From: a phage
Length of the DNA: 64,000 nt
Direction: 5' to 3' (one strand)
Assembly (NCBI GenBank): GCA_011839185.1
Contig: GCA_011839185.1_3918.1
The notes beneath the pieces are model-generated. The model was given only the letters and a program-made list of their open reading frames with translations. It was not told where the DNA came from and ran no database searches. Made by a program: the position numbers and the translations under genes. Of this stretch, positions 12,774 to 46,837 are shown in pieces; the first letter of the stretch is position 1; each line of letters opens with the position of its first letter.

Positions 12774-12795
12774 GGCTCCTACGGGAGCCTTTTTA
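12774..12795 (+). terminator. rho-independent terminator
   Basis: GGCTCC-TACG-GGAGCC followed by TTTTT. Confidence 0.6.
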
Positions 12796-12811
12796 ATTTC
12801 TGGAGAAGATT

Positions 12812-13147: not shown

Positions 13148-13305
13148 AAATTTTACTGTCACTTGGTAGCGTAGCAGTATTTGTTTACCTTCTTTGCAAG
13201 TACTATGCAGAGTACAAGAAGTGTGATTACTGCAATGGGGAAGGGTATACAAGAGCAGGTTGTTGCCCTATGTGTGGTGGTTCTGGTAAAATGTTTAATA
13301 AGTAA
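13129..13305 (+). CDS. small membrane protein with C-terminal zinc ribbon (58 aa, absent from the ORF track)
   Basis: ATG at 13129 to TAA at 13303-13305; hydrophobic N-terminus then CDYC...CPMC. Confidence 0.3.
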   Translation: MQAYWIEILLSLGSVAVFVYLLCKYYAEYKKCDYCNGEGYTRAGCCPMCGGSGKMFNK

Positions 13306-13333
13306 TTTAACAGTAAACTAAGAGGAAAGTATT

Positions 13334-15700
13334 ATGCGCATGGTAAATGACCACGCAGAAGTGATTAAGAGTTCAACTTCTTTAGAGACGTCTCAAGCAC
13401 AGATTACAATGACACCTGAGATGTTCAGCCTTTTGAGTTCTGGTGTATATACCTTTAAAGAAAGGGCAGTGATTCGTGAACTGTCATGTAACGCAGTAGA
13501 TGCTCAGAAAGAAGCTGGAAAAGAGAACATTCCGTTCCATGTGCATTTACCTACTCGTTTTGAGCCTTACTTTGAAGTTCGTGATTTTGGAACTGGATTG
13601 ACTCATGATAAAGTTATGAGTTTGTACCTAAACTACGGGGCTTCTACGAAGAATGACTCTAATGACTACATTGGTGCAATGGGTATCGGCTCAAAATCCC
13701 CATTTGCAATTGCTCAGTCATTCACAGTATCTAGCTATGTTGATGGTGTTGTTAATAAGTACTCTGTTTATCTTGAGAATGGTATCCCTCAAGTAACTAA
13801 GCTGACCACTAACCCAACAAAAGAACCCAATGGTTTAGCTGTACGTGTGGCAGTTGCTGACCACCGTATCTCAAAGTTCTTTGAAGAAGCTGGAAATGTG
13901 TACTCATACTTCACTGTAAAACCAGAAAGTAATATTGAGTACGACGATGTATTAGCAGATATGAACGTCATTGCCCGTGAAGAAGGTGTTTATGATGCCA
14001 TGATTCATAAGCAAAGCTGGCGTTCTAGTGGTAACAGGACAGAGTTTAATGTGGTGATGGGTAATATTGCCTATCCAGTGAACATGGAAGCATTACTTGG
14101 TGATGATTTCTTCAAAGTCTTGCCAGAGTTTTTCCGTAGGAGCGTAGACCTTGTAAACATCTACATGCCTATTGGTTCAGTTGCTATAGCAGCTTCTCGT
14201 GAAGCATTGCAGATGAATGATACGACAAAAAATGTTATCATCGAGGCTACCAAAAAGATAACTGAAGCAATTACAAAGGATGTTATCAAGAAAGTTAATA
14301 GCCAACCTACACTCATGGATGCTGCACAGGCTTATGCAGAGTTACGTTTGAACTCACGAGAGATGTTTAATGCTGTGTGTCCAAAGCTAGAGTGGGGAGG
14401 CGTTAAGCTTGATTCTCTGGAAGAAGAATTGTTAAACATTCGTCGTGGAATTATCTACGCAGAAGACGGCTCAGTCATTTATGAACGTGACGGTAAAGGC
14501 AATATTAAGGTTGATAGGAACGGGAACAATATCCCTAAAGTAGATTATCTTTATAACCCAGTTGCTTATGTCAAGTTCAACTCTTTAGAGAGTAAGATTC
14601 GTGCAACAGCACTTTCCTACACTCAAGAGGCAAGTATGTTCAATATCTTTGGCGCAATGCGTAAAAGCCAAATTGAACAGTTTTTGTTCGTGATTAATGA
14701 CCGTCGCAATAAAAATGGTACTGAGAAGACTGTAGGCCGCAATCAGATTCTGCGTGGTGCATGTCGAGACTACGCCAGTGAGTCAAGTCTGTTTCACAGA
14801 TATAATGGTATTGTGTTTGTATTCTCGACTGAAAAAGAGTTAGACGACCTAATCAACCTACACAAACTTGATAAAAGCTTGTTAAAGATTGTGAAGATGT
14901 CTGATAAGGAACATCACTATCAGCGTAAAGAAGCTGTAAGAGGTGTTGTAAAACTCTGGAAAGCTGTTCCAGCAGAAGGTGTAGCTTCCTATAAAGAGGT
15001 TTCAGAGGACTTAGATACGATTGAAGAGCCTCAGCTTTATATTAAGGCAGTAGGCGACACAGTTGATGGCGAATGTTTTTGCTCATCTCCAGAAGATGTA
15101 GCTAAGTCAGTTGCCAATGTCATTGGAAAGAAAGTATATGTTTTCCGAAAAGCAAATTGGAAAAAGATACCAGAAGACTGGATTGAAGTAGATGAGAAGC
15201 TCTTGAATGACAGCTTAACTGATGTTCACTGGATTAACCATAACAGGTATATGACACGTATCTATATGAATGGTGTCCTTGACCTTACAAGCAGTTGGAT
15301 TATTGCCAGAAACTTTACGTTCAATAACAGGAAGATTTCTCGTGGCTATTGTTATTCGCGGGATACAAACAAAACTATCTTCTTAGAAGGTAATGAAGAT
15401 GCTGTAGAGGCAATGTTTGGTAAAATCCAATACGTTGCTGCACCATTTGCATACACTTACATTATTAGTGTGTTGCAAGATTTGAAAAGGTGTCTTGATA
15501 ATGATACAAAGCTTTACAAGAAAATTAAGAAAGCTGGTGACCGCATGGTCATTAAGGTGACAAACTACCTTTCAAAAAGAAAACAAGAAAACTTCTTGCT
15601 TTCTCATTTAGATTGGAATAAAGTGTCACCCATCGAAGTGAGTAAGTTCTTAGGCTTTGATGTGAAGTGTGTTCCAGAAGGGACTACAATTTACGATTAA
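13334..15700 (+). CDS. rIIA: rIIA-like protein with GHKL-type ATPase N-terminal domain
   Basis: 788 aa; ELSCNAVDA, DFGTG and GAMGIGSKS motifs of a histidine-kinase-like ATPase fold; followed by an rIIB-sized gene. Confidence 0.7.
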   Translation: MRMVNDHAEVIKSSTSLETSQAQITMTPEMFSLLSSGVYTFKERAVIRELSCNAVDAQKEAGKENIPFHVHLPTRFEPYFEVRDFGTGLTHDKVMSLYLNYGASTKNDSNDYIGAMGIGSKSPFAIAQSFTVSSYVDGVVNKYSVYLENGIPQVTKLTTNPTKEPNGLAVRVAVADHRISKFFEEAGNVYSYFTVKPESNIEYDDVLADMNVIAREEGVYDAMIHKQSWRSSGNRTEFNVVMGNIAYPVNMEALLGDDFFKVLPEFFRRSVDLVNIYMPIGSVAIAASREALQMNDTTKNVIIEATKKITEAITKDVIKKVNSQPTLMDAAQAYAELRLNSREMFNAVCPKLEWGGVKLDSLEEELLNIRRGIIYAEDGSVIYERDGKGNIKVDRNGNNIPKVDYLYNPVAYVKFNSLESKIRATALSYTQEASMFNIFGAMRKSQIEQFLFVINDRRNKNGTEKTVGRNQILRGACRDYASESSLFHRYNGIVFVFSTEKELDDLINLHKLDKSLLKIVKMSDKEHHYQRKEAVRGVVKLWKAVPAEGVASYKEVSEDLDTIEEPQLYIKAVGDTVDGECFCSSPEDVAKSVANVIGKKVYVFRKANWKKIPEDWIEVDEKLLNDSLTDVHWINHNRYMTRIYMNGVLDLTSSWIIARNFTFNNRKISRGYCYSRDTNKTIFLEGNEDAVEAMFGKIQYVAAPFAYTYIISVLQDLKRCLDNDTKLYKKIKKAGDRMVIKVTNYLSKRKQENFLLSHLDWNKVSPIEVSKFLGFDVKCVPEGTTIYD

Positions 15701-27708: not shown

Positions 27709-28482
27709 TCGACGCAACGGGGCTAAATAGCCCCAGATACCTTAAAAGCTCCTTCTCATAGGGGCTTTTTTACGTCTATAAAGAATCCTTTCCCTTTCCT
27801 TTCCAGAATCTACCCCACTGATTCGATAGAGTCTATCTCATACCTTAAAAAGCAATAACTCTATAGTCTATTCTATAGCCCCTTATCAAATCAACTTAAA
27901 TAAAAGCCAATAACCCCAGAAAGGGGATGGCCCATTTAAACGCTCTATAAAGCTCTATAACAGCCTTATCAACCTAACTTAAGGGATTGCATTAACCCAC
28001 TCTAAAAAGCCCTTTATAAAGCTTCCTATAGCCTTAAAAGAATCTTATAAGGTGTAAGCTTTATCATCTCGTTAGTTTCTTGTGAATATCTAAAAAGGGC
28101 TTGTTAGTGTCTTAAAAGTATGTTATAGGGGCTTAAAAGTAGCTTAAAAGCTATGTGAAAGAGGCTATAAAGTTACGTAAATGCTAGCCCCCTTAACATT
28201 TTCTTAACAATTTCTTAACAAACCCTACATAGTTATGCTTGTTAGAGACTTGTTAGCCCCTTGTTAAATCTCTGTTAAAACCACGTAAAAGGCTTGTAAG
28301 AACCTTTGGCATAGCCTTAAAAGCTCCTGTAAAGCCCTATAAAGAGCTATCCATACAGTTGAGGGGTAAATACTAGGAAGAGGCTTAAAAGAGCTTACAA
28401 GGAGCTATAGAGAGCTTTTAAGAGGCATGTTTAAGGAATCACTAAGAAAGGAAAGGGAACGATAAGGAAGAGATAGTGACCA

Positions 28483-28757
28483 TGTTAATAGCTTGTTAAA
28501 AAGATTAAACACTTGTTAGAAACTTGTTAATTATCTTAACAAAATAACCCTTTAAAATTAACTTGTTAGCTCTTGTTAGTCATCTGTTAAGATTCTGTAA
28601 AGCCTATTCAGCACTTGTTAGAAAACTGTTACAGTCTTGTTAGTTCTGTTAAGAATCTGTTAAGACCTTTGAAGAGTTGTTAAGAAGATGTAAGGACTGT
28701 TAAGAGATTGTTAAGGATATTTTAAAATTTTGCAAAGTACTTGTAAGGGAGTTGTTA
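28483..28757 (+). repeat. helically phased array of at least 16 TGTTA(A/G) words
   Basis: TGTTA at 28483, 28494, 28514, 28524, 28564, 28574, 28585, 28615, 28627, 28638, 28648, 28658, 28678, 28698, 28709, 28753; spacings are multiples of 10-11 bp. Confidence 0.65.
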
Positions 28758-29317
28758 AGGGCTACCAAGCAGATATACATCTTCTACAGATATTTTTCAG
28801 TTCCTTCAAAGACCCTAAAAAATGACTTGATAGTCCTATTTTATAAAAATTTTAAAATTCTGAATAATTACCTATACAGTCTTTTAAAAATACAGGTAGA
28901 AACAGGCTTATAAGATACCTTGTTAGTACCGTGTTAGACCTTGTGAGATAAGGTCTGTAAAGATATTACTGTTAAGTTTGTTAAAACAGTCTATATAGAG
29001 GCTTAGTATTTCCTAGTGAACATCTATAGAGAGTCACATAGCTGACATAGAGATTAAGAGGTGTATAGGAGCTTCTAAGAAGGTGTAGAGAGATGGTTAA
29101 GGTGATTGTATAGGTTGTTAAGAAGGCTTGTTAGAGGGCTTGTTAGAAGGGTTATACAGAGGGGCTATTAAGACCACTAGATAGTTACTAAGATACTATA
29201 TAGTACTATATAACTATATAGAGAGTAAGATTAAGAAGGTTGTTAAGAAGGGTAGATATTTTATTCACATATGATGGTGACCCAGAGGTTGGGACAACCG
29301 ATAAATTTTATAAAAAT

Positions 29318-29345
29318 TAAAAAGCCCCCGATTAAGGAGGCTCTT
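29318..29345 (-). terminator. terminator-like hairpin for the minus-strand block
   Basis: on the minus strand AGCCTCC-TTAATC-GGGGGCT followed by TTTTT. Confidence 0.4.
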
Positions 29346-29353
29346 AAGATATT

Positions 29354-36750: not shown

Positions 36751-36978
36751 GGCAGACCTACAGCTTTAACTAAGATGGTACAGTAATCCATACAACAAGT
36801 CAAGAACTATTGCAAGTTAAAAAAGTTGTTGACAAAGTACTTGACAAGGTGTAGGCTTATAAATACTTAGAAGATAACTTAAAAGGTTCCTCTAAAAAGG
36901 CTATTTAAACAGATATCTTTCTGGATATCTATCTTTTATCTTAAAAGCCTTTTAAGAGGTCTTATAAGAGGCATACCA
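36751..36978. promoter_or_regulatory. divergent promoter region between minus- and plus-strand blocks
   Basis: two TTGACA hexamers (36829, 36841) and TATAAAT (36858-36864) in an AT-rich intergenic region. Confidence 0.4.
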
Positions 36979-37350
36979 ATGAAAAACAGAACAAACAAAG
37001 GCCAGTTTAAAAAAGGCCAGTCTGGAAACCCATCTGGAAGACCAAAAGGCTCTCGTAACAAAAGCTCACTTGTAAAAGCTCAACTGACCATTGATAATTC
37101 TGCTGAGTTTGCTGCAAAGTTGTTTGAAGCAATTGTTACAAGGGATGCTGCTAAGCTTGCAGAGTTCGGGTTAAACACAGACGACGTAACCATCAAGAGC
37201 ATGATTGAGGTCGGTAAAACTATCATGACTCACTCAGCAGGTGAGATGAAAGCCATTGCAGCAGACACTAAGAAGACTCCTGATAATGGTGGTCAGTCTC
37301 AGACAGATAACAAACCAACGTTCTCTGCTGTAGCGACTCTTAAAAAATAA
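36979..37350 (+). CDS. hypothetical protein with basic N-terminal KGQSGNPSGRPKG motif
   Basis: ORF track 123 aa. Confidence 0.5.
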   Translation: MKNRTNKGQFKKGQSGNPSGRPKGSRNKSSLVKAQLTIDNSAEFAAKLFEAIVTRDAAKLAEFGLNTDDVTIKSMIEVGKTIMTHSAGEMKAIAADTKKTPDNGGQSQTDNKPTFSAVATLKK

Positions 37351-37431: not shown

Positions 37432-38847
37432 ATGAGCGAATTATTTAAACATGCGCACCTTCATGCAGGTCGAACTGAAAATGGTGCTGTAAACCATACT
37501 TCATCAATGTCTGCTCTTGTAGACTTTTACAAAGCTGCTGGTTCAAGCCGTAGTAACGTAGAAATCTTACCAGACCTGTTCTACAAAGCTTTGCGTGAGG
37601 ATGTTGATGTTGCAGTTCGTATTTTGCTTCATATGCGAGATGTACGAGAAGGTATGGGTGAGCGTAAAGCCTTCAGAACTGTTTTGCTTCAAGCAATTGA
37701 AGATAAAGTTTTAGAGTCTACGCAGGTTCTTCGCATTATGGATAAGATTGCAGAACTTGGTCGTTTTGATGACTTCAAAATCTTCGTAGGTACTCGTTTC
37801 GAGACAGATGCCTTCAAACATTTAGAAGAAGCATTACTAGACCCTGCAACAGCAGGTTTGGCGGCTAAGTGGTTACCACGAGTCAAACCACGTCATAAGC
37901 AGTTTGTAAAACGTTTCTGCAAGTTTGCCAACTTGAGTGAGAAAGAGTACCGCACACTGTTGTCTGCACTATCTGATACAGTTGAGCAAAAAATCTCTGC
38001 TAATGAGTTTGGTAAGATTGACTACAGTAAGATTCCTTCACTTGCTGCTGCACGTTACCAAAAACTGTTTAACCGTAAAGATGGAGAGCGTTACAAAGCT
38101 TACATCGAGTCCTTATCAAAAGGTGAGGCTAAGATTAATGCTGGTGCTGTTTACCCATACGATGTGATTAAATCTGTCAAGCATGGTAATGCAGATGTTG
38201 CTAATGAGCAGTGGAAAGCACTACCAAACTGGATGGCAGAAGGTGAAAACATCTTGTGTATGTCTGATGTATCAAGTTCAATGTCTTGGGTGAATTTTGG
38301 CTCCATTACTGCTCTGGATATTGGTGTATCACTTGCCTTGTATGTAGCAGAACGCAATACAGGTTGCTTTAAGAATGAGTTGATGGTTTATTCAACAAAC
38401 CCTCACTTCATCGAACTGAGTGGTGATTTACGAAACCGTCATCGTCAGGTGATGCGACACGTTGAATATGGCTCAACTAACTTACAAGCAGCTTTTGACC
38501 GCATTCTTGAGACAGGCAAAAGAAACAACTTGACTCAGAAAGATATGCCAAGTAAGCTTATCATCTTCTCCGATATGGAGTTTAATCAGGTTGATGGGGC
38601 TAACGGTCGTACAAACTTTGAAGCAATTCAGAGTAAGTACAAAAAAGCTGGATATGAGATGCCACAACTGGTATTCTGGTACTTAGCAAACCGTAATGGT
38701 ACTTGCGAAGTATCTGTTAAGGATAACGGTGTAGCAATGGTATCAGGGTTCTCTCCAGCCACTTTAAAAGCTCTGCTTGGTGGTGAGAAGTTTGACCCAA
38801 TCAGTGTAATGCTCAAAGCAGTAATGATTGACCGTTATATCTGGTAA
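37432..38847 (+). CDS. vWA-domain protein with helical N-terminal domain (possible Ro60/Rsr-like or DUF2828-like)
   Basis: 471 aa; MIDAS-type DVSSSM at about residue 279 with downstream T and D residues; ~270-aa helical N-terminal region; directly upstream of the tRNA array. Confidence 0.6.
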   Translation: MSELFKHAHLHAGRTENGAVNHTSSMSALVDFYKAAGSSRSNVEILPDLFYKALREDVDVAVRILLHMRDVREGMGERKAFRTVLLQAIEDKVLESTQVLRIMDKIAELGRFDDFKIFVGTRFETDAFKHLEEALLDPATAGLAAKWLPRVKPRHKQFVKRFCKFANLSEKEYRTLLSALSDTVEQKISANEFGKIDYSKIPSLAAARYQKLFNRKDGERYKAYIESLSKGEAKINAGAVYPYDVIKSVKHGNADVANEQWKALPNWMAEGENILCMSDVSSSMSWVNFGSITALDIGVSLALYVAERNTGCFKNELMVYSTNPHFIELSGDLRNRHRQVMRHVEYGSTNLQAAFDRILETGKRNNLTQKDMPSKLIIFSDMEFNQVDGANGRTNFEAIQSKYKKAGYEMPQLVFWYLANRNGTCEVSVKDNGVAMVSGFSPATLKALLGGEKFDPISVMLKAVMIDRYIW

Positions 38848-39011: not shown

Positions 39012-39088
39012 CTCTGTTTAGCTCAGCTTGGTAGAGCGTTCCGTTTGGGGCGGTAAGGCCGGAGGTTCAAGTCCTCCAACAGAGACCA
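39012..39088 (+). tRNA. tRNA-Pro (anticodon TGG)
   Basis: manual cloverleaf: acceptor CTCTGTT/AACAGAG, D-arm GCTCAGCTTGGTAGAGC, T-arm GGAGGTTCAAGTCCTCC, encoded CCA. Confidence 0.8.
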
Positions 39089-39095
39089 AATTAAT

Positions 39096-39173
39096 GTTCC
39101 AGTGGACAAAATGGTAAAGTCACCACTCTTTCAAAGTGGATATTTGAGGGTTCAAATCCCTTCTGGAACGCCA
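39096..39173 (+). tRNA. tRNA-Glu (anticodon TTC)
   Basis: acceptor GTTCCAG/CTGGAAC, anticodon arm CCACT-CTTTCAA-AGTGG, T-loop TTCAAAT, encoded CCA. Confidence 0.75.
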
Positions 39174-39180
39174 GTTTTGA

Positions 39181-39253
39181 CAGAAGACCAATTACAGCAA
39201 ACTTAATCTTATTCATCTGAAGGTAAATCGGACAAAGAAGAGATTTGGTCTGG
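39181..39253 (+). ncRNA. candidate structured element A (hairpin with conserved bulged closing stem)
   Basis: 5' CAGAAGACCAAT ... ATTTGGTCTGG 3'; AT-rich ~48-nt interior; one of four related elements. Confidence 0.35.
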
Positions 39254-39264
39254 TCATTAAGAAT

Positions 39265-39341
39265 TGCGGGTATAGAGAAAGGGCGTCTCACATGTCTCAT
39301 TAGCATGGTATCGGCAGGTTCGACTCCTGCACCCGCCTCCA
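39265..39341 (+). tRNA. tRNA with CAT anticodon (Met or Ile2)
   Basis: acceptor TGCGGGT/ACCCGCC with 1-72 mismatch, anticodon arm CATGT-CTCATTA-GCATG, T-arm GCAGGTTCGACTCCTGC, encoded CCA. Confidence 0.65.
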
Positions 39342-39347
39342 AATTTA

Positions 39348-39411
39348 CAGAAGACCGTTTACAGCAATATTTATTAAATTTTTAGCGGAAAAATTGAAAG
39401 ATACGGTCTGG
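39348..39411 (+). ncRNA. candidate structured element B
   Basis: 5' CAGAAGACCGTTTACAGCAA ... ACGGTCTGG 3'. Confidence 0.35.
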
Positions 39412-39424
39412 TAATACTAAACAT

Positions 39425-39501
39425 GGTTAGGAAGCACATAAGGTATGTGCGGTCGCCTGTTAAGCGAATGGCACAGGGTTCGAATCCCTGACTAACCGCC
39501 A
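39425..39501 (+). tRNA. tRNA-Asn (anticodon GTT)
   Basis: acceptor GGTTAGG/ACTAACC, D-arm GCACATAAGGTATGTGC, loop CTGTTAA, T-arm CAGGGTTCGAATCCCTG, encoded CCA. Confidence 0.75.
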
Positions 39502-39570
39502 AATTTAGGAGAGAAGCGATTGCTCACCGATTTGTAAGGTGCAAGTCCTTAGCCTGAATAGAAATCAAAT

Positions 39571-39658
39571 GTGTCGTTATCCCGTAGATGGTAGCGGTGG
39601 GGACTGTAAATCCCTTGTCATTGAGACTCGGTAGGTTCGACTCCTACACGGCACACCA
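39571..39658 (+). tRNA. tRNA-Tyr (anticodon GTA), long variable arm
   Basis: 88 nt; acceptor GTGTCGT/ACGGCAC, loop CTGTAAA, T-arm GTAGGTTCGACTCCTAC, encoded CCA. Confidence 0.75.
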
Positions 39659-39663
39659 ATAAA

Positions 39664-39741
39664 GGTTATGTAGTTTAATTTGGTTAAAATACTCCCCTGT
39701 CACGGGAGATGATGAGGGTTCAAATCCCTTCGTAACCGCCA
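39664..39741 (+). tRNA. tRNA-Asp (anticodon GTC)
   Basis: acceptor GGTTATG/CGTAACC, arm CTCCC-CTGTCAC-GGGAG, T-arm GAGGGTTCAAATCCCTT, encoded CCA. Confidence 0.8.
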
Positions 39742-39769
39742 ATTTTGAGAGGGCTATTTAGCCCCTCCC

Positions 39770-39797
39770 TTAAAGGGTTCTTACGAGTATCCTTTAA
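39770..39797 (+). promoter_or_regulatory. conserved hairpin with GTTCTTACGAG loop (copy 1 of 4)
   Basis: TTAAAGG-GTTCTTACGAGTAT-CCTTTAA. Confidence 0.4.
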
Positions 39798-39802
39798 AGG
39801 AG

Positions 39803-39876
39803 CAGAAGACCAAATACAGCAAGTTACTTAAAATTTCAAGCCAATTTAATTTTGAAAAATTTAAAACTTGGTCTGG
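39803..39876 (+). ncRNA. candidate structured element C
   Basis: 5' CAGAAGACCAAATACAGCAA ... CTTGGTCTGG 3'. Confidence 0.35.
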
Positions 39877-39889
39877 CTCAACAAATTTA

Positions 39890-40020
39890 CAGAAGACCGT
39901 TTACAGCAAAACTTAAACAATCTATTTCTCGGTAAAGAAAAGGCGAAGGTTCGATTCCTTCACTCGGCAGATGTCGAGTTGGTGTAATGGTAGCACTTAA
40001 GATGATAAACAACGGTCTGG
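39890..40020 (+). ncRNA. candidate structured ncRNA D: closing stem as A-C, enclosing a permuted tRNA-like module
   Basis: CAGAAGACCGTT ... AACGGTCTGG; inside in order: T-arm GAAGGTTCGATTCCTTC, 7-bp acceptor-like hairpin ACTCGGC-AGAT-GTCGAGT, D-arm GTGTAATGGTAGCAC. Confidence 0.45.
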
Positions 40021-40021
40021 T

Positions 40022-40165
40022 AATTATCTTTGTAGATAAGTTATTAAGCTTACCTGTGAGTATGCGACCACAAAGGGTGAAAGGGTAAATTCTAGATTTA
40101 AACCTAAAAAGGCACATCGCTACAGACCTTAAGCAAGTCTGGGTAGCTTATCTACAAAGATAATT
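40022..40165 (+). repeat. long inverted repeat (19-bp perfect arms) enclosing about 106 nt
   Basis: AATTATCTTTGTAGATAAG (40022-40040) and its exact reverse complement (40147-40165). Confidence 0.6.
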
Positions 40166-40169
40166 TAAT

Positions 40170-40245
40170 GGAAGTGTAGCAGAATGGTGATGCGGCAGAC
40201 TTTTAATCTGACAGGCGATGGGTTCGAATCCCTCCACTTCTACCA
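40170..40245 (+). tRNA. tRNA-Lys (anticodon TTT)
   Basis: acceptor GGAAGTG/CACTTCT, loop CTTTTAA, T-loop TTCGAAT, encoded CCA; T-stem imperfect in my parse. Confidence 0.65.
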
Positions 40246-40323
40246 AATTCACCCTTAACTGAGAAACACCTGCGCGGCTGGAAACACCCACTCAACAGTT
40301 TCTCTAACTAGGGTACTTATTCT

Positions 40324-40400
40324 GGTTCAGTCGCAGATAAGGTAATGCAAGGGTCTCATAAGCCCTATGAATGTGGGTTCGATTCCCATCTGAACCTCCA
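40324..40400 (+). tRNA. tRNA with CAT anticodon (Met, fMet or Ile2)
   Basis: acceptor GGTTCAG/CTGAACC, anticodon stem with three G-C pairs (AGGGT/GCCCT), loop CTCATAA, T-arm GTGGGTTCGATTCCCAT, encoded CCA. Confidence 0.7.
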
Positions 40401-40416
40401 ATTCGTTGGTGATATT

Positions 40417-40902
40417 ATGTTTTGTGCTAATAAAGATTGTGACAACAAAGCCGTTAAAGGTGGAAAGTATTGTTCACGCTCTTGTGCTGCAAGGGTAAAC
40501 AACAAGAGTCATCCAAAAAGAAGACAAGAAGGCTCTTGTCATTCATGTGGAAAGCAGACACCAAAATCAAGAAAGTATTGTGATGAATGTATTTCAAATG
40601 GTATTCTGAAACAATACAAAAACCCCGATGAAGAAAAGAAAGCGAAGTCACAACACGTTAAAAAGTCTCGTGACAAACTTAAGAGGGTTTTAGTTGATTA
40701 CAAAGGTGGTTGTTGCTCAATTTGTGGATACAATAAGTGCATAAAGGCTTTAGAGTTTCACCACTTAGACCCTAATACAAAGGACTTCACAGTAGGACAA
40801 AAACACTTCTCTATAGAGGTAATGAAGTCTGAAGTTGATAAGTGTGTATTACTGTGTGCAAATTGCCACAGAGAGGTACACGAAGGGGTAACAAAGCTGT
40901 GA
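40417..40902 (+). CDS. HNH homing-endonuclease-like protein with N-terminal zinc ribbons (start trimmed past the tRNA)
   Basis: C-terminal EFHHLDP...LLCANCHREVH HNH motif; several CxxC pairs; ORF-track start 40345 lies inside the tRNA. Confidence 0.65.
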   Translation: MFCANKDCDNKAVKGGKYCSRSCAARVNNKSHPKRRQEGSCHSCGKQTPKSRKYCDECISNGILKQYKNPDEEKKAKSQHVKKSRDKLKRVLVDYKGGCCSICGYNKCIKALEFHHLDPNTKDFTVGQKHFSIEVMKSEVDKCVLLCANCHREVHEGVTKL

Positions 40903-40971
40903 AAGCACATATGGATGTGCATTCGGCTGATAACCGAAAGGCAGAAGGTTCGAATCCTTCTCACAGTACCA
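40896..40971 (+). tRNA. tRNA-Ile (anticodon GAT)
   Basis: acceptor GCTGTGA/TCACAGT, D-arm GCACATATGGATGTGC, arm TTCGG-CTGATAA-CCGAA, T-arm GAAGGTTCGAATCCTTC, encoded CCA; first 7 nt overlap the HNH stop codon. Confidence 0.75.
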
Positions 40972-40986
40972 ATTTCAATAAAGTTG

Positions 40987-41015
40987 TTGACATTGAGATG
41001 TGACTACTTTATAGT
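40987..41015 (+). promoter_or_regulatory. sigma70-like promoter inside the tRNA array
   Basis: TTGACA, 17-nt spacer, TATAGT. Confidence 0.55.
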
Positions 41016-41182
41016 AACCTTAGTTTTCGTTGCGTAGCGTCTATTTTGCAAATTTAAAATAAATGCAAACGACAATGTTTTTCTGGCAGTAGCTTGATAG
41101 GCTAAACACCAGTGAGGTCTTCCAATCCCTCATCAAAGAATTTGGCGTACTCGCCCACGGTATGATTAATAAGGTGGGCATC

Positions 41183-41210
41183 TTTAAGGGCTTTCTAAGA
41201 GAGTCTTTAA
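41183..41210 (+). promoter_or_regulatory. conserved hairpin-motif variant (copy 2 of 4)
   Basis: GGCTTTCTAAGAGAGTCTTTAAAG, about 10 nt upstream of tRNA-Arg. Confidence 0.3.
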
Positions 41211-41218
41211 AGATTAAT

Positions 41219-41295
41219 GCACCCTTAGTTCAACTGGACAGAGCAAATGACTTCTAATCATTGAGTTACAGGTTCGAATCCTGTAGGGTGTGCCA
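41219..41295 (+). tRNA. tRNA-Arg (anticodon TCT)
   Basis: acceptor GCACCCT/AGGGTGT, arm AATGA-CTTCTAA-TCATT, T-arm ACAGGTTCGAATCCTGT, encoded CCA. Confidence 0.8.
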
Positions 41296-41437
41296 ATTAG
41301 TTAGCAGATTACTTAGACGACCTTATCGGGTCTCCGTGTAAGGAGGTGGTCTGTATCTCATGTTTTCCAGAACATGTAAATAATCTGAGAAGGGGCTTTA
41401 CAGTGTTGAGATAACAGGGTAAGCTTCGAATTATAGT

Positions 41438-41520
41438 ATGGGACGATGTTAAGACTCTAAGGCATGAGCAACGGCTTCCAACACCGTTTCAAAGGGGTTC
41501 AACTCCTCCGTCCCATGCCA
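41438..41520 (+). tRNA. atypical tRNA-like gene, anticodon CCA (Trp-type), about 7 extra nt between acceptor and D-arm
   Basis: 3' two-thirds parse canonically (arm ACGGC-TTCCAAC-ACCGT, T-loop TTCAACT, acceptor GTCCCAT, CCA) but the complementary 5' acceptor sits 7 nt too far upstream. Confidence 0.3.
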
Positions 41521-41533
41521 AAGTCTTATTAGG

Positions 41534-41621
41534 GGTAGGTAGCGGCTAATGGTAGCCAAACTGTCTTGAAAACAGTTGCCACTGTAGAGATACGGTGAGG
41601 GTTCGACTCCTTTACTTACCG
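41534..41621 (+). tRNA. tRNA-Ser (anticodon TGA), long variable arm
   Basis: 88 nt; acceptor GGTAGGT/ACTTACC, 3-bp D-stem, arm ACTGT-CTTGAAA-ACAGT, T-loop TTCGACT; no encoded CCA. Confidence 0.65.
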
Positions 41622-41843
41622 CCTAATAAGATTTAAAGCCAAGCTTCATTCGGATGTTGCTTTGGTATCCCTCGTGTATTGTCGTACACACTGATAAAGC
41701 ACCTAGTAGGTGTCACGGAGAAGAGATAATATCAAGCTCTCCAAAGGTTCTAGTCACCGGATTAAACAAGACTATGCAAAGACCTATTTAGGTCTTTTTA
41801 GAGGGCTTCTAAGGTTATTACAGCTTGTTGTGGAACCTTGTTG

Positions 41844-41868
41844 CTTAGGTTCTTAGAAGTTCTCTAAA
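41844..41868 (+). promoter_or_regulatory. conserved hairpin-motif variant (copy 3 of 4)
   Basis: TTAGGTTCTTAGAAGTTCTCTAA, about 10 nt upstream of a tRNA. Confidence 0.3.
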
Positions 41869-41878
41869 AAGATTTAAT

Positions 41879-41955
41879 GCACCTATAGCCCAACTGGTAG
41901 AGGCAGCAGACTTAGAATCTGCTCAGTGTGAGTTCGAATCTCTCTAGGTGTACCA
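41879..41955 (+). tRNA. tRNA with Leu anticodon TAG, class-I-length variable loop
   Basis: perfect anticodon stem GCAGA/TCTGC with loop CTTAGAA; Leu-like D-loop AACTGGTAGA; discriminator A; 5-nt variable loop. Confidence 0.6.
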
Positions 41956-41962
41956 AATTAAT

Positions 41963-42038
41963 GCAGGTGTAGCAAAATGGTTATGCGGCTGACTCTTAAT
42001 CAGTAAGACGATGGGTTCAATTCCCTCCACCTGTACCA
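41963..42038 (+). tRNA. tRNA-Lys (anticodon CTT)
   Basis: acceptor GCAGGTG/CACCTGT, loop CTCTTAA, T-loop TTCAATT, encoded CCA. Confidence 0.65.
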
Positions 42039-42044
42039 AACATT

Positions 42045-42120
42045 GGGGTCATAGTTTATATGGTTAAAATTCGAGTTTTGCAAACTTGGGAACTGAGTTC
42101 AATTCTCAGTGACTCCACCA
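42045..42120 (+). tRNA. tRNA-Ala (anticodon TGC)
   Basis: acceptor GGGGTCA/TGACTCC with G3-U70 wobble (Ala identity element), loop TTTGCAA, T-arm CTGAGTTCAATTCTCAG, encoded CCA. Confidence 0.8.
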
Positions 42121-42125
42121 ATTAG

Positions 42126-42201
42126 TGCATCCATAGTTTAAACGGGAAAATTACAGTCTTCCAAACTGAGGTTGAGGGTTCGATTCCCTCTGGATGCTCC
42201 A
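42126..42201 (+). tRNA. tRNA-Gly (anticodon TCC)
   Basis: acceptor GCATCCA/TGGATGC, loop CTTCCAA, T-arm GAGGGTTCGATTCCCTC, encoded CCA. Confidence 0.75.
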
Positions 42202-42208
42202 AATTAAT

Positions 42209-42284
42209 GCTCCTATCGTATAATTGGCTATTACGGTTGCCTTGTAAGCAACTTATCAGGGTTCGAATCCTTGTGGGAGCACCA
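42209..42284 (+). tRNA. tRNA-Thr (anticodon TGT)
   Basis: acceptor GCTCCTA/TGGGAGC, arm GTTGC-CTTGTAA-GCAAC, T-arm CAGGGTTCGAATCCTTG, encoded CCA. Confidence 0.8.
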
Positions 42285-42287
42285 ATT

Positions 42288-42376
42288 CAGAGGTCAAGTG
42301 AAAGACCGCTTTGAGTCAACTGAAGACCGTAACAAATTCCACGGAGTTGAGTTAGCGGCACAACTCCAGACCTCTT
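42288..42376 (+). ncRNA. candidate structured element E between tRNA-Thr and tRNA-Val
   Basis: 7-bp closing stem AGAGGTC/GACCTCT enclosing an internal hairpin GGAGTTG...CAACTCC and a GAAGACCG word shared with elements B and D. Confidence 0.3.
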
Positions 42377-42380
42377 TCAT

Positions 42381-42455
42381 ACTCGCTTAGTTTATATGGT
42401 AAAACATCACCCTTACAAGATGAAGAAAAAGGTTCAAGTCCTTTAGTGAGTACCA
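42381..42455 (+). tRNA. tRNA-Val (anticodon TAC)
   Basis: acceptor ACTCGCT/AGTGAGT, loop CTTACAA, T-arm AAAGGTTCAAGTCCTTT, encoded CCA. Confidence 0.7.
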
Positions 42456-42456
42456 T

Positions 42457-42534
42457 GTTCCAGTATCCCAATTGGCAGAGGATGCAAGCTCAAACCTTGT
42501 ACTAGTGACGGTTCGAATCCGTCTTGGAACACCA
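42457..42534 (+). tRNA. tRNA with Leu anticodon CAA, class-I-length variable loop
   Basis: acceptor GTTCCAG/TTGGAAC, Leu-like D-loop CAATTGGCAGA, loop CTCAAAC, T-arm GACGGTTCGAATCCGTC, discriminator A, encoded CCA. Confidence 0.55.
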
Positions 42535-42539
42535 ATTTT

Positions 42540-42615
42540 GCAGGATTAGTTCAAATGGATAGAGCAACAGTCTACGAAGCTGTTAGTAGGGGTTCGAATC
42601 CCTTATCCTGCGCCA
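42540..42615 (+). tRNA. tRNA-Arg (anticodon ACG)
   Basis: acceptor GCAGGAT/ATCCTGC, arm ACAGT-CTACGAA-GCTGT, T-loop TTCGAAT, encoded CCA. Confidence 0.75.
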
Positions 42616-42633
42616 GATAAGCAAGAGGAATTT

Positions 42634-42876
42634 ATGCAAACATTAATCGTCGTTGAACATGAAAATCCCAACAGTATTGAGTTTGTAAGGGTTCCCACTA
42701 TAGATACTCACATTTTCTTGAAAGTCGGATGGGAATGCGACCCGATAAAAGTAGGAAAATTTCTTGGTCATTACTTTGGTGGAAGACAATTTAAAAGTAT
42801 CAATTTTGAGACAGTATTACCAGAAAACTCAGAAACAGACAATAATACTTACCTCCTTACGAGGATTAGACAATGA
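42634..42876 (+). CDS. hypothetical protein inside the tRNA array
   Basis: ORF track 80 aa; does not overlap any tRNA. Confidence 0.45.
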   Translation: MQTLIVVEHENPNSIEFVRVPTIDTHIFLKVGWECDPIKVGKFLGHYFGGRQFKSINFETVLPENSETDNNTYLLTRIRQ

Positions 42877-43430: not shown

Positions 43431-43438
43431 AGATTTAA

Positions 43439-43514: not shown

Positions 43515-43516
43515 AT

Positions 43517-43595: not shown

Positions 43596-43600
43596 AATTT

Positions 43601-45220: not shown

Positions 45221-46837
45221 TTGCGGAGGTGCTTAATGGACTTAAATGCTGTTAAGCAGAAGCGAGTGGAAGATGTTAGGAAAGTCCTAGCTGGAGAGTT
45301 GGGGCTCTCTGATGAAGTAAAAGAAATTATCAAATCATTCGGTAAAGACCCCTCTAAATTCCTTCCAACTCAAATTCTGACTTTATTAAGATACACACCA
45401 GACCAAGTTAGACTTATCTTCAAATTGATGACTGATAAGAATTATGTAGCCCCTCAGCCGGGTTCTCAAGAGGTCTTTTTAAATACTAATGCTGACTTGG
45501 TTCTCTATGGTGGTGCTGCTGGTGCTGGTAAAACTGCTGCATTGTTAATGGATTCTTTAAGGTTTATTGAAGACCCTAACTATAATGCTGTATATTTCCG
45601 TCGAAATACAACACAGCTACAAGGTGGTTTATGGCCTGCTGCAAAGAAACTATTTGGTAAGTTTGGTGGGATTCCTCACGAGCAGAAAATGACTATCACA
45701 TTCCCTTCTGGGGCAACTATCAAGTTTACCTACCTAGAACTTGAAAAGCACGCTGAAGGTCATCAGGGTATTGAATACTCAGCTATTTACTTTGACGAAG
45801 GTACACACTTCTCTGCTTCACAGATTTCATACCTACAAACCCGTCTACGTTCTGGTGCTGAAGGTGATTCATACATGAAGATTTCCATGAACCCAGACAG
45901 AGACCACTTTATTTACGATTGGGTAGAGCCATTCTTAGATGAAGAAGGCTATCCAGACCCTGAAAAATGTGGTCGTATTCGTTGGTATGTAATGAACGAT
46001 GGTGTGATGGTTTCTGATTGGGAGAGAGACAAGATTCTTGAAATGTTCCCTCTTGAGATTCCTCAAACATACACCTTTATCTCTGGTACGATTGATGATA
46101 ACCCAATCCTTGACTTCTTAGAGCCTAAGTACCGTGGTAAGTTGGAAAACAACACCCCTGTAAACGTTGCAAGACTTCGTTTCGGTAACTGGAAGGCTCG
46201 TGCAGAAGGTTCAAACTATTGGCAAAGGCAATGGTGTGAGATTGTTGATTCACTCCCAGAAGATGTATTTGATGTTAGAGCGTGGGACTTAGCAGCAACT
46301 TTACCATCTGAGATTAACCCTAATCCAGACTGGACAGCAGGTGTTAAGATGGGTAAATCTAAAAAAGACGGTTGCTATTATATCATTGATGTAGTAAGAT
46401 TTAGAGATAGACCCTCTGGAGTCGAAACACAAATTAATTTGACTGCTGAAAGTGACGGTAAGCGAACTGGTATTTTTATCCCTCAAGACCCAGGCGCTGC
46501 TGGTAAATCCTACGCAACATCCCTCATCAGGAAACTTGCCGAGAAAGGTTATCGTGCAAGAGCTAAACCAACAAATAAAGATAAAGTTACCCGCTTTGCG
46601 GGATTTTCTGCTGCTTCTGAGGCTGGACTTGTAAAAGTCTTGAGAGGTAGTTGGAACGAAGCTTATTTTCAAGAGCTTGAAGGCTTTTGTGGTGATGGCA
46701 AAACTAAAGATGACCAAGTGGATGCTACCAGTGATGCTTTCAACAGTCTTAACGAAGTTAAATTATTCAAGCCACCATCAATGGGTGCTCACACAGACTT
46801 AGTGAGAGGAAACCCATATGAGGGGCTTAGACGTTGA
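45221..46837 (+). CDS. terminase large subunit
   Basis: 538 aa; Walker A LYGGAAGAGKT; Walker-B-like IYFDEG; position ahead of the portal gene. Confidence 0.8.
   Translation: MRRCLMDLNAVKQKRVEDVRKVLAGELGLSDEVKEIIKSFGKDPSKFLPTQILTLLRYTPDQVRLIFKLMTDKNYVAPQPGSQEVFLNTNADLVLYGGAAGAGKTAALLMDSLRFIEDPNYNAVYFRRNTTQLQGGLWPAAKKLFGKFGGIPHEQKMTITFPSGATIKFTYLELEKHAEGHQGIEYSAIYFDEGTHFSASQISYLQTRLRSGAEGDSYMKISMNPDRDHFIYDWVEPFLDEEGYPDPEKCGRIRWYVMNDGVMVSDWERDKILEMFPLEIPQTYTFISGTIDDNPILDFLEPKYRGKLENNTPVNVARLRFGNWKARAEGSNYWQRQWCEIVDSLPEDVFDVRAWDLAATLPSEINPNPDWTAGVKMGKSKKDGCYYIIDVVRFRDRPSGVETQINLTAESDGKRTGIFIPQDPGAAGKSYATSLIRKLAEKGYRARAKPTNKDKVTRFAGFSAASEAGLVKVLRGSWNEAYFQELEGFCGDGKTKDDQVDATSDAFNSLNEVKLFKPPSMGAHTDLVRGNPYEGLRR

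What the first reader, a model, noticed from the sequence alone, without database searches (positions are those of the whole stretch)
28194..28757. Helically phased TGTTA array with an orientation flip
Seen in sequence: at least 16 TGTTA(A/G) words between 28483 and 28757 with spacings of 10, 11, 20, 30, 40 and 44 bp (multiples of a helical turn), preceded at 28194-28217 by three TCTTAACA words in the opposite orientation. Phasing at about 10.5 bp puts every site on one face of the helix, as expected for cooperative protein binding or intrinsic DNA bending; the inverted block resembles inverted iterons.
Basis: seen in the sequence. Interest (0 to 1): 0.7.

Follow-up and report, generated by a model that had tools for sequence, protein, structure and literature searches.

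The report
Phage terminal repeat with phased words
The flagged stretch is the 580-bp repeat that forms both physical ends of a Felix O1-type phage chromosome; it carries a conserved five-letter word once per turn of the DNA helix, most likely as a landing pad for the proteins that cut and package the genome.

Summary
There are 16 TGTTA words in 28483-28757, against 1.25 in dinucleotide shuffles. All lie within about 2 bp of one phase at a 10.3-bp period (0 of 2000 random placements). Three inverted TTAACA words sit at 28193-28220.

The window is a Felixounavirus. The finding coincides with that genus's direct terminal repeat (DTR), window 28187-28766. Three GenBank records carry this repeat at both ends with identical boundaries, and it was mapped experimentally in phage UAB_Phi87. 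The inverted words start 6 nt inside the left terminus. The last forward word ends 9 nt before the right terminus.

Across 21 homologues the words are 98-99% conserved and the spacers 85%. Larger indels come in steps of about 10-11 or 22 bp, so the phase is kept. Erwinia phages, with otherwise unalignable DTRs, have the same word and layout.

A wedge model predicts no intrinsic bend in the array. Nothing supports a replication origin.

Best reading, inferred: phased protein-binding sites for recognising and cutting the genome ends. One candidate reader turned up: a DUF5681 protein (36979-37350). Its relatives sit directly upstream of terminase large-subunit genes, and its invariant GRPKGS motif resembles an AT-hook.

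The DTR is known. The array architecture and the candidate reader appear undescribed.

The parts
27709..29353 (.). ORF-free region of 1645 bp between convergent gene blocks. It holds the terminal repeat and its flanks.
   Evidence: ORF list. The homologous region is unannotated, or carries only terminators, in GenBank relatives.
27744..27771 (+). Terminator-like hairpin plus T-run closing the left-hand (+ strand) gene block.
   Evidence: Sequence read directly. A rho-independent terminator is annotated at the homologous place in phage AYO145A.
27741..28172 (+). Left flank with a second word family (CTTAAAAG, CTATAAAG, CTGTAAAG) at a loose period of about 11 bp.
   Evidence: k-mer enrichment and periodicity, R 0.6-0.7 at 10.9-11.1 bp. 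Weaker than the TGTTA signal.
28187..28766 (+). Direct terminal repeat (DTR) of the phage genome, present here as a single copy.
   Evidence: Exact repeats at both record ends of CRP22 (579 bp), SeKF_63 (613 bp) and Pr103Blw (581 bp, PhageTerm, annotated). All begin GCCCCCTTAACA and end TGTTAAGGGCTACC. The UAB_Phi87 608-bp DTR, mapped by Bal31 digestion and run-off sequencing, corresponds to 28195-28768.
28193..28220 (-). Three inverted words (TTAACA, the reverse complement of TGTTAA) 11 bp apart, starting 6 nt inside the left terminus.
   Evidence: Copy number is 2, 3 or 4 in homologues, changing in exact 11-bp steps.
28240..28277 (+). Four forward (C)TTGTTA(G/A) words at 11-bp spacing.
   Evidence: One homologue has two extra 11-bp units.
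28278..28482 (.). Central part of the DTR with no TGTTA words. It holds CTTAAAAG-type words and a purine tract, GAAAGGAAAGGGAA.
28483..28757 (+). Main phased array: 16 forward TGTTA(A/G) words plus one inverted word at 28537.
28753..28766 (+). Right terminus: the last word fused to the boundary, TGTTAAGGGCTACC.
   Evidence: Last 14 nt of the DTR in the three records that carry both copies.
28767..28779 (+). AAGCAGATATACA, the 13-mer that immediately follows the DTR. It is conserved in Erwinia phages (Kolesnikvirus).
   Evidence: Invariant in the alignment. Present just after the DTR in Roscha1, and with one substitution (AAGTAGATATACA) in vEam_S_24.
28921..29245 (+). Smaller TGTTA(A/G) clusters in the right flank: 28921-28983, 29116-29145 and 29241.
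   Evidence: Comparable clusters lie right of the DTR in Roscha1.
29320..29345 (-). Terminator-like hairpin closing the right-hand (- strand) gene block.
   Evidence: A terminator is annotated at the homologous place in AYO145A.
36979..37350 (+). 123-aa DUF5681 protein, proposed as the small-terminase-like reader of the words. This is a candidate only.
   Evidence: Pfam PF18932, E 2e-14. Distant family members lie directly upstream of terminase large-subunit genes. The invariant G-R-P core inside GNPxGRPKGSxN matches the HMG-I(Y) AT-hook peptide.
45221..46837 (+). Terminase large subunit, the nuclease and motor expected to cut at the DTR boundaries.
   Evidence: Pfam Terminase_6N (E 2e-43) and Terminase_6C (E 4e-33).

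Best explanation
The flagged stretch is the direct terminal repeat (DTR, window 28187-28766) of a Felix O1-type myovirus. This is the sequence found at both ends of the packaged linear chromosome and once at each junction of the replicating concatemer.

I propose that the TGTTA(A/G) words are phased binding sites for a sequence-reading protein of the packaging machinery. Twenty forward and four inverted words sit on one face of the helix. Binding would coat or wrap the DTR and place the terminase nuclease (TerL, 45221-46837) at the two fixed boundaries.

The inverted words at the left boundary and the forward word at the right boundary give the repeat an approximate two-fold symmetry. That is what a staggered-nick-and-fill-in mechanism for duplicating a terminal repeat would need.

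A candidate reader is the DUF5681 protein (36979-37350). Its family occupies the small-terminase gene slot in other phages. Its invariant GRPKGS motif resembles a minor-groove AT-hook that could contact the TTAA core of each word once per turn.

Shown: the identity with the DTR, the boundaries, the enrichment, the phasing, and the conservation.
For: DTR identity. The window is a Felixounavirus: 255 phage records match, the best at 91-94% identity. CRP22, SeKF_63 and Pr103Blw carry exact repeats of 579, 613 and 581 bp at both record ends, mapping to 28187-28766. Pr103Blw's repeat was called by PhageTerm. The UAB_Phi87 DTR was mapped by Bal31 and run-off sequencing, and its published sequence aligns to 28195-28768.

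Words are selected. Word positions are 98-99% identical across 21 homologues against 85% for spacers, and 0 of 274 circular shifts reach that difference. Every homologue keeps 19-23 TGTTA plus 2-6 TAACA.

Phase is selected. R is 0.70-0.89 at 10.1-10.45 bp in all homologues. Indels other than 1 bp are 8-12, 21-23 or 48 bp long.

Geometry at the termini. The left end reads GCCCCC-TTAACA and the right end TGTTAA-GGGCTACC. The boundary regions align as inverted repeats (33 nt; 48 of 2000 shuffles score as high).

Cross-genus conservation. The DTRs of Erwinia phages are 442 bp and mostly unalignable. They still start with TTAACA-type words 11 bp apart, hold 13-14 TGTTA (29.5 per kb against 1.7 per kb nearby), and are followed by a near-identical flanking 13-mer.

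Not an intrinsic bend.

Reader candidate.
Against: No binding data exist for any protein. No paper in the searchable library discusses these words.

The DUF5681 gene lies 7.9 kb from TerL in this genome, not next to it. Its model is a disordered arm plus simple helices, with no fold match to solved small terminases. The AT-hook resemblance rests on a 12-residue match at E 0.2, and no AT-hook match was returned when its first 40 residues were scanned against Pfam-A at E up to 10.

The mirror symmetry of the boundaries is only modestly significant in the window (p about 0.02) and not significant in the Erwinia phage.

Word clusters also occur outside the DTR, so the array is not strictly a DTR feature.

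The 17 IMG/VR loci among the 21 aligned sequences were fished with the exact 14-mer at the right boundary. The invariance of that boundary is therefore partly by construction. The homologues are related, so their phasing tests are not independent.
Confidence: 0.6

Rival explanations
1. The words bind a protein that acts on the ends of the incoming or replicating chromosome rather than in packaging. Possible roles are holding the two DTR copies together for recombination or concatemer formation, or shielding the ends from host exonucleases, in a telomere-like way.
For: The array is present at both ends of every virion DNA because it lies inside the DTR. A phased one-face array suits a coating or bridging protein. 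The PhageMaP preprint notes that Bas63, a Felixounavirus, lacks a RecBCD inhibitor.
Against: The words abut both cleavage positions, and the word-boundary junctions are the most conserved parts. That points to cutting rather than only coating. No candidate protein was found. The two roles do not exclude each other.
Confidence: 0.15
2. The array is a set of origin iterons, and phage DNA replication starts here.
For: It is a long, AT-rich (32.5% GC), ORF-free region with phased direct and inverted repeats. No origin has been defined for these phages in the papers read.
Against: The conserved unit is 5-7 bp, whereas classical iterons are about 17-22 bp (my knowledge). DnaA-box and IHF matches are at chance level, and none falls inside the DTR. 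Flanking genes have no recognisable initiator or DNA-binding domain. Transcription converges on the region. The array's limits coincide with the genome termini, which an origin does not explain.
Confidence: 0.08
3. The phased words make an intrinsically curved or otherwise structured DNA segment that works without a dedicated binding protein.
For: Phasing at about one helical turn is the classical signature of curvature. The left part of the DTR (284-bp windows starting 28091-28171) ranks top of the 64-kb window for predicted curvature.
Against: The main array 28483-28766 has below-average predicted curvature: mean 9.4 degrees against 11.0, with 86% of windows more curved, and an end-to-end ratio close to that of other 284-bp windows and above the shuffle mean. 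It has few phased A-tracts. Selection acts on the exact word TGTTA rather than on AT content. The model parameters were recalled from memory, so this evidence is only moderate.
Confidence: 0.05
4. The repeats are a neutral by-product of replication slippage or recombination in non-coding DNA and have no function.
For: Copy number changes by exact 11-bp units, as slippage would produce. Tandem Repeats Finder reports only short, imperfect arrays.
Against: Words are conserved far more than spacers. The same word and layout persist in a genus whose DTR is otherwise unalignable. An unrelated 22-23-bp palindromic insert also preserves the phase.
Confidence: 0.05
5. The words are sites for a host regulator that binds head-to-tail repeats 10-11 bp apart, such as an OmpR/PhoB-family protein. 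The PhoP box TGTTTA-N5-TGTTTA looks similar.
For: The local 11-bp direct-repeat spacing and a TGTT core resemble such boxes. This comparison rests on my own knowledge and was not tested here.
Against: The word is TGTTA(A/G), not TGTTTA. The same word is kept in phages of Escherichia, Salmonella, Citrobacter and Erwinia. There are no comparable clusters at promoters elsewhere in the window.
Confidence: 0.03

Closest known systems
Direct terminal repeat of Felixounavirus (UAB_Phi87 608 bp, Bardina et al. 2016, PMC4837284; Pr103Blw 581 bp, PMC8303462)
   Same: It is the same element. The sequence is homologous (roughly 80-94% identity across the records compared), with the same left (GCCCCCTTAACA) and right (TGTTAAGGGCTACC) ends and the same position between convergent gene blocks.
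   Different: Those papers report only the length and the ends. Neither describes the phased TGTTA words, the inverted words at the left end, or any recognition protein.
Phage T7 terminal repeat with its flanking arrays of short repeats (SRL/SRR of Dunn and Studier 1983, named from memory), and the similar array in SP6
   Same: Many copies of a short word sit at or next to a short exact DTR: T7 has 14 TAAAG in its first 360 bp and SP6 has 9 CTTAG. As far as I know, the function of the T7 arrays is also unproven.
   Different: The T7 period is 13.1 bp and the SP6 period 11.8 bp, so the words do not stay on one helical face. They lie mostly outside the repeat. Here the period is 10.3 bp, the words lie inside the repeat and reach both termini, and the orientation flips at one end. 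phiKMV and N4 have no such array.
Terminase recognition sites made of reiterated words: P1 pac (TGATCA/G hexamers on both sides of the cut), lambda cosB (R1-R3 sites for gpNu1), SPP1 pacL/pacR (all from my own knowledge)
   Same: Several copies of a short word flank the cleavage position. In lambda and SPP1 a small terminase binds them and bends or wraps the DNA. This is the proposed way of working here.
   Different: Those sites have 3-7 copies over 100-200 bp and serve cos or headful packaging. Here there are 24 words over 580 bp of an exact DTR, and no small terminase has been identified for this phage group. Binding is untested.
Plasmid and phage iterons, and the parC centromere of plasmid R1 (ten 11-bp repeats bound cooperatively by ParR; from my own knowledge)
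   Same: Direct repeats at helical-turn spacing place a protein filament on one face of the DNA.
   Different: Iteron units are longer and sit next to their Rep gene. parC sits next to parMR. Neither kind of gene is recognisable here, and the array's limits are the genome termini.
AT-hook minor-groove binding motif of HMGA proteins (PDB 2ezd/2eze)
   Same: The invariant DUF5681 segment PsGRPKGSrNks matches PRGRPKGSKNKG of HMG-I(Y), including the G-R-P core. It lies in a predicted disordered, basic N-terminal arm.
   Different: The match is short (E 0.2) and no AT-hook match was returned from Pfam-A. AT-hooks have little sequence specificity beyond AT-rich DNA, whereas the G in TGTTA is invariant.

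Membership tests
Short exact direct terminal repeat (DTR) of Felixounavirus | Sequence homologous to a DTR whose ends were mapped experimentally | tested here: met
   The published UAB_Phi87 DTR sequence (Fig. S1 of PMC4837284) runs AACATTTTCTTAACA...GGGCTACCAA, corresponding to window 28195-28768.
Short exact direct terminal repeat (DTR) of Felixounavirus | Same boundaries as repeats present at both ends of complete linear records | tested here: met
   CRP22 1-579 equals 86615-87193. SeKF_63 has 613 bp and Pr103Blw has 1-581 annotated. All map to 28187-28766.
Short exact direct terminal repeat (DTR) of Felixounavirus | Physically duplicated at both ends of this phage's own virion DNA | not testable with these tools
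   The window holds a single copy. Sequencing reads or virion DNA are needed.
Terminase recognition (pac/cosB-type) site | Lies at or next to the terminase cleavage positions | tested here: met
   Words start 6 nt inside the left terminus and end 9 nt before the right terminus.
Terminase recognition (pac/cosB-type) site | Reiterated, conserved short words | tested here: met
   24 words. Word positions are 98-99% identical against 85% for spacers. The word is conserved in Kolesnikvirus.
Terminase recognition (pac/cosB-type) site | Bound by the phage's small terminase | not testable with these tools
   No small terminase is annotated in the genus. Only a candidate, the DUF5681 protein, was found.
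Replication-origin iterons | Repeats of about 17-22 bp, conserved along their whole length | tested here: not met
   Only 5-7 bp per 10-11-bp unit is conserved, and flanking positions vary.
Replication-origin iterons | Adjacent initiator gene, or host initiator boxes with an unwinding element | tested here: not met
   Flanking ORFs have no Pfam domain and fall in PHROGs of unknown function. DnaA-box and IHF matches are at chance level, and none lies in the DTR.
Replication-origin iterons | Replication initiates there | not testable with these tools
   Replication-intermediate mapping is needed.
Intrinsically curved DNA | Predicted curvature well above the genomic background, with phased A-tracts | tested here: not met
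   Array mean is 9.4 degrees against a window mean of 11.0, and 86% of windows are more curved. It has 6 scattered A/T-tracts. Wedge parameters were recalled from memory, so this is approximate.
Small terminase subunit (for the DUF5681 protein 36979-37350) | Gene directly upstream of the large terminase gene | tested here: inconclusive
   Met in distant family members: L142, L144/L145, L146/L147, L152 and, weakly, L148. Not met in this window, where it lies 7.9 kb upstream of TerL. An intermediate arrangement of 1.9-2.5 kb occurs in L150/L151.
Small terminase subunit (for the DUF5681 protein 36979-37350) | Fold or sequence similarity to a solved small terminase | tested here: not met
   No PDB sequence or fold match. 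No NCBIfam model matches, and the matching PHROGs are of unknown function.
AT-hook DNA-binding motif (for the DUF5681 N-terminus) | G-R-P core flanked by basic residues that matches curated AT-hook models | tested here: inconclusive
   G20, R21 and P22 are invariant in 32 family members. The best PDB hit is the HMG-I(Y) AT-hook peptide at E 0.2. No AT-hook match was returned from a Pfam-A scan of the first 40 residues at E up to 10.

The most novel reading that the evidence does not exclude
DUF5681 proteins are a hitherto unrecognised class of small terminase. They would read DNA through an AT-hook-like arm instead of a helix-turn-helix.

In Felix O1-type phages an oligomer of this protein would insert one arm per helical turn into the minor groove of the TTAA core of the TGTTA words and wrap the 580-bp repeat. 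Through the mirror-image words at the two ends, it would position the large terminase for the two nicks that define and duplicate the terminal repeat.
Probability: 0.25. Interest if true: 0.7.

Novelty: new variant of a known kind. Interest (0 to 1): 0.5.

Why it matters
Felix O1-type phages are classical Salmonella typing phages and are now widely used in biocontrol and therapy cocktails. Even so, how they recognise and cut their genome ends is unknown, and no small terminase has been assigned to them.

This work turns the known but featureless 'DTR of about 600 bp' into a concrete map. It gives two invariant boundary sequences, 24 conserved words on one helical face, a flanking 13-mer conserved across genera, and one named candidate reader. 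That makes packaging recognition in this group directly testable.

If the DUF5681 idea holds, it would also assign a function to a widespread family of unknown function. That family sits upstream of large terminase genes in unrelated phages and prophages.

On the practical side, the boundaries tell assemblers where these genomes should be opened. They also explain why several deposited records break at exactly this position.

Tried and rejected
- **RNA element.** Rfam at a permissive threshold found only a sub-threshold Phe-leader match on the right-hand terminator. Rejected.
- **Promoters.** Sigma-70-like matches in the region equal the shuffle expectation. Rejected.
- **Origin signals.** DnaA-box and IHF patterns are at chance level.
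- **Intrinsic curvature of the array.** Not predicted. The parameters came from memory, so this is moderate evidence only.
- **'repeat_region' annotations** in phages humlepung, allfine and warpig are just short tandem repeats, not the DTR.
- **The UAB_Phi87 GenBank record** is opened elsewhere, so its ends could not be read from the record. The paper's supplement was used instead.
- **The 66-aa ORF directly upstream of TerL (45014-45214).** It falls in a PHROG of unknown function, has no Pfam or PDB sequence match, models as a confident helical hairpin, and has no fold match. It cannot be called a small terminase.
- **Genes flanking the gap (82 aa and 197 aa).** No domains and no significant PDB match.
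- **DUF5681 fold search.** No match.
- **Boundary mirror symmetry in the Erwinia phage.** Not significant.
- **Literature.** Searches for the boundary sequences, for origin or repeat descriptions in the Felix O1 and wV8 papers, for DUF5681, and for AT-hook terminases found nothing relevant.
- **PhageMaP preprint on Bas63.** The passages searched give no data for this region.
Full report
**1. The observation**

The finding lies in a 1645-bp ORF-free gap, 27709-29353. The gap sits between + strand genes that end at 27708 and - strand genes whose 3' end is at 29354. Each gene block is closed by a terminator-like hairpin.

TGTTA starts 16 times between 28483 and 28757, with spacings 11, 20, 11, 39, 10, 11, 31, 11, 11, 9, 11, 20, 20, 11, 44. 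TAACA starts at 28194, 28205 and 28216.

The enrichment is large:
- 16 words against 1.25 +/- 1.02 (maximum 5) in 1000 dinucleotide-preserving shuffles of the same 284 bp.
- 18.2 words per kb in the gap against 1.5 per kb in the other 62 kb.
- An unbiased k-mer scan ranks TGTTA, TTGTTA and TGTTAA first.

The phasing is also real. The Rayleigh resultant is 0.84 at a 10.3-bp period, and none of 2000 random placements with the same count, span and minimum spacing reached it. At 10.3 bp every word lies within -1.7 to +2.2 bp of one phase over 26 helical turns.

Neighbouring words are usually 11 bp apart. The longer gaps (9, 20, 31, 39 bp) bring the long-range average back to 10.3.

Elsewhere in the 64 kb there is only one same-strand pair 9-12 bp apart.

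**2. What the region is**

The window is a Felix O1-type myovirus (Felixounavirus). The 1.66-kb region matches 255 phage records, the best at 91-94% identity, including Felix O1 at 12299-13934.

A more sensitive search showed that many deposited genomes begin or end inside this region. Three of them carry an exact repeat at both record ends:

| Phage | Repeat length | Source |
|---|---|---|
| CRP22 | 579 bp | |
| SeKF_63 | 613 bp | |
| Pr103Blw | 581 bp, annotated 'short direct terminal repeat', called with PhageTerm | |

All three begin GCCCCCTTAACA and end TGTTAAGGGCTACC. They map to window 28187-28766.

Independent wet-lab evidence comes from Bardina et al. 2016. They mapped a 608-bp DTR in UAB_Phi87 by Bal31 digestion and run-off sequencing. 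Their Figure S1 sequence runs from AACATTTTCTTAACA to GGGCTACCAA, corresponding to window 28195-28768.

The finding's coordinates (28194-28757) are therefore almost exactly the direct terminal repeat of the genome. The window shows it as the single copy expected in a collapsed assembly or a concatemer junction.

The inverted words begin 6 nt inside the left terminus, and the last forward word ends 9 nt before the right terminus.

**3. Evidence that the words and their phase are functional**

I aligned 21 distinct homologues. Four came from the GenBank records fetched earlier. Seventeen were IMG/VR loci fished with the right-boundary 14-mer. That sampling biases the right boundary only.

Results from the alignment:
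- Word positions are 98-99% identical and other DTR positions 85-87%. None of 274 circular shifts of the word mask reaches the observed difference.
- Every homologue keeps 19-23 TGTTA and 2-6 TAACA.
- The left inverted words number 2, 3 or 4, changing in exact 11-bp steps. One genome has two extra CTTGTTAGTAG units.
- Indels other than 1 bp are 8-12, 21-23 or 48 bp long.
- The phase statistic stays at 0.70-0.89 (period 10.1-10.45 bp) in all homologues. This includes genomes that acquired an unrelated 22-23-bp palindromic insert.

The Erwinia phages Roscha1 and vEam_S_24 (genus Kolesnikvirus) share only about 75-130 alignable bases with this region. They have a 442-bp DTR with the same design:
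- It starts with TTAACA-type words 11 bp apart.
- It holds 13-14 TGTTA and 7 TAACA, at 29.5 per kb against 1.7 per kb in neighbouring DNA.
- It is followed by a near-identical 13-mer: AAGCAGATATACA in Roscha1 and AAGTAGATATACA in vEam_S_24.

**4. How it most likely works**

What is shown: a conserved word on one helical face fills the repeat and touches both cleavage positions. The rest of this section is inference.

I take the words to be binding sites for a protein of the end-recognition and packaging machinery. That protein would coat or wrap the repeat and position the large terminase, which is at 45221-46837 (Terminase_6N/6C).

The two boundary regions align as inverted repeats: arms 28190-28222 and 28729-28761, with CCCTTAACA shared. 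The alignment score is reached by 48 of 2000 shuffles. This approximate two-fold symmetry is what the classical model for duplicating a terminal repeat needs. In that model, nicks on opposite strands at the two boundaries are followed by strand-displacing fill-in (established model for T7-type phages, from my own knowledge). The symmetry is only modestly significant here, and it is not significant in the Erwinia phage.

A wedge-model calculation gives the array below-average curvature. The parameters were recalled from memory and the implementation is my own. This argues for protein-induced geometry rather than an intrinsic bend. In the same model, the left boundary and left half of the DTR are the most curved stretch of the whole window.

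**5. A candidate reader**

No small terminase has been identified in this phage group.

The 66-aa ORF directly upstream of TerL is a helical hairpin with no informative match.

While inspecting the other strand-switch region I noticed a 123-aa ORF, 36979-37350, that belongs to Pfam DUF5681. Evidence from its relatives:
- In distant family members the gene overlaps or directly precedes a large terminase gene. This holds for L142, L144/L145, L146/L147, L152 and, weakly, L148. The downstream ORFs were confirmed as large terminases with Pfam or PHROGs.
- In a marine relative the large terminase lies 1.9-2.5 kb downstream.
- Two short contigs were uninformative.

In this window the gene is 7.9 kb upstream of TerL. 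A Ro60-like ORF and 26 tRNA genes lie between them.

The family's invariant N-terminal motif is FKKGQSGNPxGRPKGSxN, with G-R-P invariant in 32 sequences. Its best match among solved structures is the AT-hook peptide of HMG-I(Y): PRGRPKGSKNKG, E 0.2. The motif lies in a predicted disordered arm ahead of two long helices.

An oligomer presenting one minor-groove arm per subunit would fit words spaced one helical turn apart with a TTAA core. This is a hypothesis, and several results count against it or fail to support it:
- No AT-hook match was returned from a Pfam-A scan of the first 40 residues.
- There is no fold match to known small terminases.
- AT-hooks alone would not explain the invariant G of TGTTA.

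**6. Rival explanations**

- **An end-synapsis or end-protection protein instead of the terminase.** This fits the array being present at both virion ends. It does not explain the conserved word-boundary junctions. It is not exclusive of the main reading. I give it about 0.15.
- **Origin iterons.** These are poorly supported. The conserved unit is short, no initiator gene is recognisable, DnaA and IHF signals are at chance, transcription converges on the region, and the array's limits equal the termini.
- **Pure curvature.** Contradicted.
- **Neutral slippage.** Contradicted.
- **A host-regulator decoy.** Contradicted by the exact word and its conservation across host genera.

**7. Comparison with what is known**

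The DTR itself is already known for the genus. None of the papers I could read describes its internal words.

The nearest analogues are the short-word arrays at the T7 and SP6 terminal repeats. I measured them: TAAAG x14 at a 13.1-bp period, and CTTAG x9 at an 11.8-bp period, mostly outside the repeat. phiKMV and N4 have none.

Functionally, the closest models are the reiterated terminase-binding words of P1 pac, lambda cosB and SPP1 pac (from my own knowledge).

This case differs in four ways:
- The number of words (24).
- Strict one-face phasing over 26 helical turns.
- Location inside the repeat, reaching both termini.
- The mirror arrangement of words at the two ends.

I rate it a new variant of a known kind. 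The element is known.

**8. Verdict**

- Observation: confirmed.
- Interpretation: partly supported. Phased protein-binding sites are likely. An intrinsic bend and origin iterons are not supported.
- Identity as the genome's direct terminal repeat: near certain.
- Role of the words in terminus recognition and packaging: plausible, about 0.6.
- Interest: 0.5.

Noticed in passing
window 36979-37350 (+): A 123-aa DUF5681 protein with an invariant FKKGQSGNPxGRPKGSxN motif that resembles an AT-hook. Distant family members sit directly upstream of large terminase genes, so the family may be an unrecognised small terminase.
   Followed up: partly
loci L002, L004, L006, L009, L016, L029, L033, L038, L053, L074, L096 (absent from the window; alignment positions near window 28540, 28563, 28621): A 22-23-bp palindromic insert (..ATTGGTATTGTTACCAAT..) occurs once or twice at different places of the non-coding region in different genomes. 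It behaves like a tiny mobile element, and its length of two helical turns keeps the word phase.
   Followed up: partly
window 27790-27803 and 28446-28459: A perfect 14-nt inverted pair, TTCCCTTTCCTTTC and GAAAGGAAAGGGAA, lies 642 bp apart. One copy is in the left flank and the other in the centre of the DTR. A chance match of this length in 1.66 kb has a probability of about 0.005 by my estimate.
   Followed up: no
window 27741-28172, 28316-28415; also 22792, 25925 and 36860-36970: A second word family (CTTAAAAG, CTATAAAG, CTGTAAAG) with a loose period of about 11 bp fills the left flank. CTTAAAAG also sits in the loop of a repeated GGGGG...CCCC hairpin at 22792 and 25925, and in the divergent promoter region near 36.9 kb. 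It looks somewhat like the T7 CCTAAAG word.
   Followed up: partly
window 28767-28779: AAGCAGATATACA directly follows the right terminus. It is conserved in Erwinia phages whose DTR is otherwise unalignable (exact in Roscha1, one substitution in vEam_S_24). It may be part of the cleavage signal.
   Followed up: partly
window 28090-28450 and 28767-29353: In my wedge-model calculation the left boundary and left half of the DTR are the most curved 284-bp stretch of the 64 kb. The single highest local value (37 degrees) falls in the right flank. The model parameters were recalled from memory.
   Followed up: no
window 37432-38847 (+) and 39012-44791: An ORF with DUF2828 and DUF7788 domains lies directly upstream of a block of 26 tRNA genes. 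The homologous Bas63 gp130 is called Ro60-like in the PhageMaP preprint.
   Followed up: no
window 45014-45214 (+): A conserved 66-aa ORF immediately upstream of the large terminase gene is predicted as a confident helical hairpin (pLDDT 83). It has no Pfam, PDB or fold match.
   Followed up: yes
L002 (humlepung 1-69), L009/L010 (mistaenkt ends): Several deposited genomes break at the left DTR boundary and carry small artefacts there: a 69-nt inverted piece at the start of humlepung and a 43-bp overlap between the ends of mistaenkt. This suggests assembly breakpoints caused by the terminal repeat.
   Followed up: partly
window 29194-29222: A short tandem array of ACTATATAG-type units (about 3 copies) lies in the right flank of the DTR.
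   Followed up: no
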